Assembly (NCBI GenBank): GCA_951406725.2 | Contig: OX597819.1 | Coordinates: 69,254,001 to 69,318,000 of the forward strand | Source: Octopus vulgaris | Taxonomy: Eukaryota | Direction: 5' to 3' | Length of the DNA stretch: 64,000 bases | In this document: positions 38,631-39,176 of the stretch, in pieces | Layout of the letters: every line of letters starts with the position of its first letter | Numbering within the stretch: position 1 is the stretch's first letter | Made by a program: the position numbers and the translations under genes | The notes under the pieces: generated by a model | What the model saw: only the letters and a program-made list of their open reading frames with translations | What the model was told of the DNA's origin: nothing | The model's database searches: none

Positions 38631-39176
38631 ATGCTCTACCAGGCAGTGGCTTTCATGGCCTCTCATCTTAATCTATTGGAAGCGGTGTCATGTATATTGA
38701 TTTGTCTTGGTATAAAAATGGCCTACAGTAACTATTCTGCTCAATAGCACAGATTTGTTTTTCAGTTGTTTGGCCTGAACCAGTTGAGCACGTCCTTTAA
38801 TAGCTGGCGATATGTGCATCTCTGATCACGAGCAGAAGTAGTGGGGGAACATCATAGCCATGTGCTGAAAGGAAACGTTTGAGGTTTGGACAGTTCACCT
38901 CTTGAAAAATGGGTGTTTTATTTAACATCCTTGCACAACCCTAATTCAGGAACCTTTTGAGCGGGATGAGCTACTGAACTCAAACAAAATTCTCATTGAG
39001 CCCCACCTGTAAGTTCATGCGCTATTTATCTTGATATGAGATCACAATGTCACGTACATATGGTCGTGATACATATGTCTGATGTACCCTTATCGGACGG
39101 GTTGTCATGATGGATATACCGGGCTTCGTATATTTATCCCAGTGTCACTTTGATGGTATGCACTGCTCTCTCACAT
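38631..39176 (+). mobile_element. (AAT)n-associated non-coding element (family D), near full length
   Basis: ATGCTCTACCAGGCAGTGGC...CTCTGATCACGAGCAGAAGTAGTGGGG...TGCACTGCTCTCTCAC, between (AAT)n arrays. Confidence 0.85.

What the first reader, a model, noticed from the sequence alone, without database searches (positions are those of the whole stretch)
38631..39176. Non-coding ~550 bp element without a Pol III head, confined to (AAT)n arrays: candidate non-autonomous partner of Dong
Seen: six independent copies (4800, 4938, 9739, 13520, 15185, 38631), all bordering AAT/ATT arrays. All keep the same end (...TGCACTGCTCTCTCACTC-AATAAT) and vary at the other (about 110, 235, 330, 460 and 550 bp). 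Five of six have the same strand polarity relative to AAT as the Dong-like LINE; 15185 abuts a locally inverted array. I see no A/B box, ORF or TIR. Established: a fixed 3' end with 5' truncation is the signature of target-primed reverse transcription, and Dong elements target TAA repeats. Inference: this is a microsatellite-specific retroposon mobilised by an RLE LINE. Its 3' end does not resemble the Dong 3' UTRs here, so recognition may be structural or the partner may be another family.
Basis: partly seen in the sequence, partly recalled or inferred. Interest (0 to 1): 0.75.

Follow-up and report, generated by a model that had tools for sequence, protein, structure and literature searches.

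The report
AAT-targeting parasite of Dong retrotransposons
This is one copy of a very common non-coding repeat of about 555 bases that sits almost only inside AAT repeats and in one orientation, and it is likely pasted there by Dong-type jumping genes even though it shares no detectable sequence with the four young Dong families tested.

Summary
The element is real and genome-wide: 13,081 exact matches to its last 21 bases, 11,394 (87%) followed by AATAA. It has a fixed 3' end and also a fixed 5' end (22 of 40 sampled copies full length). It has no ORF, no A/B box and no Rfam match. 5'-truncated copies also have AAT upstream, so the arrays are targets. Its polarity, its 3' junction and its short 5' re-priming repeats match those of Dong/R4 LINEs, and a few single insertions join element and Dong sequence. 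It is not a LINE 3' UTR or an internally deleted Dong: no homology to four young full-length families. Its 3' hairpin resembles the conserved Dong 3' hairpin only under a post-hoc pattern; a model trained on Dong alone did not score it. Best reading: a non-autonomous retroposon of unknown origin, mobilised in trans by Dong proteins. Promoter, recognition signal and exact partner are not shown. Closest known: Entamoeba EhSINE1. Repbase and Dfam could not be checked.

The parts
38631..39176 (+). Near-full-length copy of the ~555-bp non-coding retroposon (family positions 8-553), an older copy at 85.9% to a young one
38483..38632 (+). Upstream (AAT)n target array
39175..39278 (+). Downstream (AAT)n array, partly decayed to ATG
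38631..38723 (+). 5' head (family 1-101), predicted self-contained rod hairpin; z=-2.0, 6 of 100 shuffles as stable, so weak; no tRNA/5S/7SL/snRNA/ribozyme match
38724..38894 (+). Segment (family 102-271) also carried inside a separate ~480-bp TA-flanked MITE family
39077..39124 (+). 3' hairpin with GGGTA-type pentaloop (family ~451-503; z=-3.7), candidate recognition signal, untested
51734..52279 (+). Duplicate of the 38631 copy inside a 13-kb duplication; not independent
4798..4909 (+). 5'-truncated copy (444-end)
4940..5377 (+). 5'-complete copy with internal deletion (1-356, 484-end)
9739..10203 (-). Copy (32-291, 344-end) in the AAT tail of a Dong LINE
13518..13759 (-). 5'-truncated copy (312-end)
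15185..15507 (-). Old 5'-truncated copy (240-end, 78%), abutting an inverted array
10229..12386 (-). 5'-truncated young Dong/R4-like LINE (family A: RT plus C-terminal RLE), a candidate mobiliser

Best explanation
This is a high-copy, non-coding retroposon of about 555 bases and unknown origin that is confined to (AAT)n arrays in one polarity and is likely copied in trans by the reverse transcriptase/endonuclease of Dong (R4-clade) LINEs. Shown: fixed 3' end joined to AAT, a fixed 5' start, frequent 5' truncation with AAT upstream, 5' re-priming repeats, no ORF, no Pol III boxes, no homology to four young Dong families. Inferred steps: (1) an RNA with a discrete 5' end is made, probably by Pol II or by read-through plus processing, since T4 runs and absent boxes argue against Pol III; (2) it runs on into the downstream (AAU)n array; (3) a Dong protein binds it, most likely through the 3' hairpin plus the AAU tail rather than a shared sequence; (4) the enzyme nicks the ATT strand of an array and primes reverse transcription at ...CACTC, giving full or 5'-truncated copies and occasional jumps onto the same or a Dong RNA.
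For: 3' junction: 11,394 of 13,081 exact 3' ends are followed by AATAA. In 40 copies picked only for an intact 3' end: 38 AAT downstream, 32 AAT upstream, 22 start within 20 nt of the 5' end, 18 truncated or deleted, of which 12 have AAT upstream. Dong families A, B, C and I end in AAT on the same strand. 5' re-priming repeats: 6 of 87 element copies and 11 of 88 Dong copies; 0 of 63 outer ends of a control SINE. No shared sequence upstream of the 5' start in 22 loci chosen for non-AAT flanks. Mixed insertions: element 1-40 / Dong-A end / element 492-end between AAT arrays (L148); element 1-136 joined to a Dong-C-like 3' part (L288). Dong elements target TAA repeats (PMC3812793, PMC1635306, passages); R2 RT jumps templates in vivo (PMC3414825, abstract).
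Against: No sequence is shared with any tested Dong end, although RLE LINEs are usually stringent (recalled). The Dong-trained model does not recognise the 3' hairpin, and family A lacks the GGG loop. Apparent selection on the fold vanishes when transitions are controlled (p=0.2-0.7). The mixed insertions could be deletions between neighbouring insertions. The control for re-priming repeats is small. Only 4 Dong families were read full length, while a published octopus annotation lists 51 Dong-R4 consensus families (PMC13282606 supplement). No promoter or ribozyme was found.
Confidence: 0.7

Rival explanations
1. The element is a conventional stringent partner or an internally deleted (SIDE/bipartite) derivative of an RLE family that was not sampled, is low-copy or is extinct, and shares its tail or both ends.
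For: This is the known pattern for EhSINE1 (~70-bp shared tail; PMC2996970, passages) and R2 SIDEs (PMC3414825, abstract). At least 8 Dong-like 3' ends occur in the sample and only four families were read full length.
Against: A genome-wide pattern for the R4 C-terminal motif within 260 nt of the element's 3' end gave only 30 hits, from several families; 24 have an AAT spacer and the other 6 have different junctions. None of 40 copies has a shared upstream extension. The best-supported loose ends on the last 184 bases in four contig sets are AAT or element variants (1068 rows not shown). Copies 98-100% identical to each other exist, so a partner was active recently.
Confidence: 0.18
2. The element is moved by another retroelement (Penelope-like, or an APE LINE) or is a degenerate Pol III SINE whose (AAT)n tail anneals to arrays.
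For: Penelope-type repeats containing (AAT)n are noted for this genome (earlier AI notes, not tested here). Tail-target annealing could explain polarity without a specific endonuclease.
Against: No hammerhead or tRNA/5S/7SL/U match. ARAGORN is negative at the default and 90% thresholds, and relaxed hits equal shuffles. T4 runs lie at 77, 333 and 511. Junctions and re-priming repeats match Dong.
Confidence: 0.08
3. The element is a solo LTR or DNA-transposon derivative that prefers AAT arrays.
For: It can be read TG...CA at its ends, has a TATAAAAG at ~88, and shares 170 bp with a MITE.
Against: One-sided truncation; no internal region next to any end in 40 + 22 loci; the ends do not pair as inverted repeats; the MITE segment appears to have come from the element.
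Confidence: 0.04

Closest known systems
EhSINE1 of Entamoeba histolytica (partner of the RLE-encoding EhLINE1)
   Same: Short non-coding non-autonomous retroposon, no identified small-RNA precursor, only imperfect A/B-like boxes, partner with a restriction-like endonuclease (PMC2996970 and PMC1635306, passages).
   Different: EhSINE1 shares about 70 bp of 3' end with its LINE and is not sequence-targeted; this element shares no detected tail and is confined to (AAT)n.
R2 SIDEs and bipartite non-autonomous LINEs (RTE, Ingi, Vingi, R2)
   Same: Non-coding, site-specific in the R2 case, spread by TPRT in trans (PMC3414825, abstract; PMC5786205, passages).
   Different: They consist of the partner's 5' and 3' ends, with an HDV-like ribozyme in R2 SIDEs. 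Neither was found here, and PMC5786205 lists no R4/Dong-derived case as of 2018.
Dong / DongAg / DongBg (R4 clade)
   Same: TAA/AAT target, same polarity, same junction features (PMC3812793, passages).
   Different: Autonomous 4-5.5 kb LINEs with RT-RLE ORFs of 1,150-1,340 aa here. B. mori Dong self-cleaves through an HDV-like ribozyme (PMC3774820, passages); none was detected in this element or in four octopus Dong 5' ends.

Membership tests
SINE (Pol III: tRNA, 7SL, 5S, U-snRNA head) | Head homologous to a small RNA | tested here: not met
   Rfam gave nothing credible at E<=10 on the head or the whole element; ARAGORN negative
SINE (Pol III) | Internal A and B boxes; no internal T4 terminator | tested here: not met
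   Only isolated one-mismatch hits at 85 and 117, no full B box within 2 mismatches, T4 runs at 77, 333, 511
SINE (Pol III) | Transcription by Pol III | not testable with these tools
   Only contigs were available
SIDE / bipartite non-autonomous LINE | 5' and 3' ends homologous to an autonomous LINE | tested here: not met
   No BLAST match to full-length Dong A, B, C, I; 8 local alignments versus shuffles, best p=0.027 and not at the LINE's 5' end. Unsampled families remain open.
SIDE / bipartite non-autonomous LINE | 5' HDV-like ribozyme | tested here: inconclusive
   None by Rfam or descriptor, but the same methods found none in four Dong 5' ends, so there was no positive control
EhSINE-type partner of an RLE LINE | Non-coding, no small-RNA precursor | tested here: met
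   Longest frame inside the element 59 codons, no Pfam hit in 9 frames
EhSINE-type partner of an RLE LINE | 3' tail shared with the partner LINE | tested here: not met
Dong/R4-mobilised sequence | Insertion into (TAA)n in Dong polarity | tested here: met
Dong/R4-mobilised sequence | TPRT ends: fixed 3' end, 5' truncation, template jumps | tested here: met
Dong/R4-mobilised sequence | Conserved Dong 3'-UTR stem-loop | tested here: inconclusive
   Post-hoc descriptor matches (0 of 1000 tail shuffles, 13 of 1000 whole-element shuffles); Dong-trained model does not
Dong/R4-mobilised sequence | Mobilisation by the Dong protein | not testable with these tools
   needs a TPRT or retrotransposition assay
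Retrozyme / Penelope pLTR | Hammerhead ribozyme, direct tandem monomers | tested here: not met
   No Rfam hammerhead hit; adjacent copies are separated by AAT
Solo LTR or MITE | Both ends fixed, with an internal region or TIRs | tested here: not met
   One-sided truncation; no flanked internal region; ends do not pair

The most novel reading that the evidence does not exclude
A retroposon with tens of thousands of copies that parasitises stringent, microsatellite-specific Dong LINEs without any shared sequence: it is loaded by RNA shape and an (AAU)n tail alone, possibly by several Dong families at once, and makes its own precise 5' end by an undescribed promoter or self-cleaving fold.
Probability: 0.3. 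Interest if true: 0.75.

Novelty: new variant of a known kind. Interest (0 to 1): 0.5.

Why it matters
RLE-type LINEs such as R2 and R4/Dong are generally thought to choose their template by their own 3' UTR (recalled; PMC3414825 abstract for R2), and the short partners I read about share that end. A passenger about as abundant as the four young Dong families together (13 versus 13 3'-complete copies in 860 kb), yet sharing no sequence with them, would show how little an RNA needs to be loaded by such an enzyme and inserted site-specifically into a microsatellite. That bears on SINE origins and on R2-type gene insertion tools, and it is testable with intact Dong ORFs from the same genome. It has no shown host function.

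Tried and rejected
Expression: no RNA holder listed on record; the runs are contigs and RNA is a guess, so nothing is concluded. Coding remnant: no tblastn match to the Dong-A ORF (best E=0.36), no Pfam hit. tRNA-like fold at relaxed ARAGORN thresholds: equal to shuffles (95 and 38 of 100). A by-eye likeness of the head to 5S rRNA (recalled) was not supported by Rfam. The 8-9-nt likeness of the 5' start to a motif in the Dong B and C 5' UTRs was not significant (p=0.8, 0.6). HDV-like descriptor: no hit in the element or in Dong 5' ends. Covariation among element copies: 1 of 181 pairs (the copies are too alike). Structure-preserving substitutions: significant overall (p=0.002-0.02) but not within transitions. 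No longer master copy upstream. Phage collection: no match. The first control for re-priming repeats returned one copy and was redone. Dong family G and the old families D, F, H were not obtained full length. Literature: the searches (three sequence motifs) gave 0 papers; some searches gave the papers cited. None describes this element in the parts I saw. Repbase, Dfam, SINEBase and the Zenodo library of PMC13282606 could not be searched, so it may exist there as an unclassified SINE or unknown repeat.

Full report
Observation. The seventh lies in a 13-kb, 97-98% duplication across a 100-N gap and is not independent. Against a young full-length copy (L006), two window copies are internally deleted rather than 5'-truncated, and 15185 abuts an inverted array. 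The genome is 2.8 Gb in 227 contigs and is likely an octopus (inference from size, about 30 large contigs and the scan's notes).

Abundance and target. A DNA search gave 11,987 candidates, of which 40 were scored. An exact 21-mer of the 3' end occurs 13,081 times and 11,394 of these continue with AATAA; the reversed control pattern occurs 0 times. In 86 arbitrary 10-kb stretches there were 14 hits in 10 stretches, three of them near-identical neighbours; this extrapolates to roughly 36,000-46,000 copies (rough). Thirteen of 14 reach the 3' end, 13 have AAT downstream, 11 upstream and none ATT, against 2.6% for random positions and 4-5 of 170 for a control SINE. In 40 copies taken from the first 100 listed 3'-end matches, 38 have AAT downstream and 32 upstream; 22 start within 20 nt of the 5' end; 12 of the 18 shorter ones have AAT upstream. 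A truncated copy cannot bring its own upstream flank, so the arrays are targets (inference). Identities to L006 run from 78% to 100%, so the family was active over a long time and recently. The last 184 bases, with AAT loose ends, lie in one piece in contig sets labelled organisms A, B, D and E.

Both ends are defined. Full-length copies begin (A)ATGCCCTG. Twenty-two loci chosen for non-AAT sequence just upstream show no common extension; many carry repeats of the element's own first 10-230 bases. The same re-priming repeats occur at Dong 5' junctions: 6 of 87 element copies and 11 of 88 Dong copies, against 0 of 63 outer ends of the control SINE (small control).

What it is not. The longest frame inside the element is 59 codons, with no Pfam hit and no match to the Dong ORF. 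Rfam finds nothing credible on the head or the whole. There is no A/B box pair, and T4 runs lie at 77, 333 and 511. ARAGORN hits appear only at thresholds where shuffles also hit. Four young Dong/R4-like families were read full length: A (1,152 aa; RVT_1 and R2-protein matches), B (~1,314 aa), C (~1,235 aa) and I (1,344 aa). None shares either end with the element. A genome-wide pattern for the R4 C-terminal motif within 260 nt of the element's 3' end gave 30 hits; 24 have an AAT spacer and 6 are one-off junctions from different families. So it is not a Dong 3' UTR. This test would miss longer UTRs, other RLE clades and diverged tails.

Links to Dong. Target, strand and 3' phase are the same. 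L148 holds element 1-40, then the Dong-A ORF end and UTR, then element 492-end, between AAT arrays. L288 joins element 1-136 to a Dong-C-like 3' part. L333 has Dong-like sequence directly before position 7. These fit template jumps between the two RNAs, but deletions between neighbouring insertions are not excluded. Dong targeting of TAA repeats is from PMC3812793 and PMC1635306 (passages); in vivo template jumping by R2 is from PMC3414825 (abstract).

Recognition signal. Dong 3' UTRs share a stem, 3x1 loop, 6-bp stem and 5-6-nt loop with strong covariation: 93.9% of cells paired, 26 double changes, 0 of 500 shuffles. The element has a stable hairpin about 50-105 nt from its 3' end (z=-3.7) with a GGGTA loop like the TGGGT, GGGAA and AGGGA loops of families B, I, C and G. 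A descriptor written with the element in view matches it and 0 of 1000 tail shuffles, but the unbiased model trained on Dong alone scores it 1.9 bits, E=3.1, against 35-43 bits for Dong copies. The whole RNA folds better than shuffles (z=-3.2), yet selection on the fold is not shown once transitions are controlled. Structural recognition therefore stays a hypothesis.

5' end formation. B. mori Dong self-cleaves from a TAA co-transcript through an HDV-like ribozyme (PMC3774820, passages and section 16). No such fold was detected in the element, nor in the four Dong 5' ends here, so the test lacks a positive control. An internal Pol II promoter or an undescribed cleavage are both open.

A captured segment. 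Loose ends in four contig sets showed positions 102-271 inside another family, a ~480-bp MITE with CACTGTGTAACA-type TIRs and TA flanks; its two junction motifs occur 229 and 172 times exactly. MITE copies are about 9% from their own majority, the MITE differs from the element majority at 6 of 170 sites, an old full-length element copy (L164) shares two of the three non-CpG internal differences, and older element copies exist. The MITE likely took the segment from the element.

Comparison and novelty. It works like EhSINE1, a short partner of an RLE LINE with no small-RNA precursor (PMC2996970, passages), but lacks a shared tail and is microsatellite-specific. It fails the tests for Pol III SINE, SIDE/bipartite LINE, retrozyme and solo LTR. 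PMC5786205 (passages) lists bipartite derivatives only for RTE, Ingi, Vingi and R2. A recent octopus annotation reports 5 recently active Dong-R4 families and 893 active unclassified SINE families without describing such an element (PMC13282606, parts 1-2 of 3 and a supplement search); PMC8967140 (passages) likewise; PMC4758252 was seen as a listing only. Ten literature searches found no description, but repeat databases and that paper's Zenodo library were out of reach. The scan's index had no look-alike. Verdict: real, new variant of a known kind; Dong-mobilised without shared sequence 0.7; interest 0.5.

Noticed in passing
L196-L215, L171-L195 (e.g. L208, about 1330-1810): A ~480-bp TA-flanked MITE with nested inverted arms carries positions 102-271 of this retroposon at its centre; the left boundary coincides with the end of the element's predicted 5' hairpin.
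   Followed up: partly
L248:638-681:-, L216:5493-5536:+, L224:5736-5779:+, L008:1347-1390:+, L110:7219-7262:-: Otherwise unalignable Dong/R4 3' UTRs share a covarying stem, 3x1 loop, 6-bp stem and pentaloop motif.
   Followed up: yes
L061-L069, L216-L229, L248-L257: At least four young Dong families with open ORFs of 1,150-1,340 aa coexist in AAT arrays; their 5' ends are purine-rich, show re-priming repeats and have no detected HDV-like ribozyme. Families B and C share a short conserved hairpin-plus-TGCTCTGA motif near the 5' end.
   Followed up: partly
window 34308-47394 and 47495-60645: A 13-kb duplication at 97-98% identity on either side of a 100-N gap; possibly a haplotype duplication in the assembly.
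   Followed up: partly
L010:844-935: Element positions 1-91 are joined to an unknown 3' end with a perfect 14-bp hairpin that also ends in an AAT array; possibly another AAT-targeted family.
   Followed up: no
L029, L062, L065 upstream flanks: A tRNA-like head ending directly in (AAT)n supplies some of the target arrays; earlier notes call this a Penelope terminal repeat.
   Followed up: no
L303 (about 1000-1060 on the element strand): A copy with an inverted 5' segment (positions about 87-146 reversed), resembling fold-back or twin priming.
   Followed up: no
L025:2088-2600; L026:2300-3040: 5' parts of the element are joined directly to what look like a mariner-type transposase end and an old Dong-like RT region (read by eye, not tested).
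   Followed up: no
window 39718-40002, 40890-41383 (-) and duplicates at 52798-54672: Decayed 3' fragments of older Dong-like families next to the finding.
   Followed up: partly
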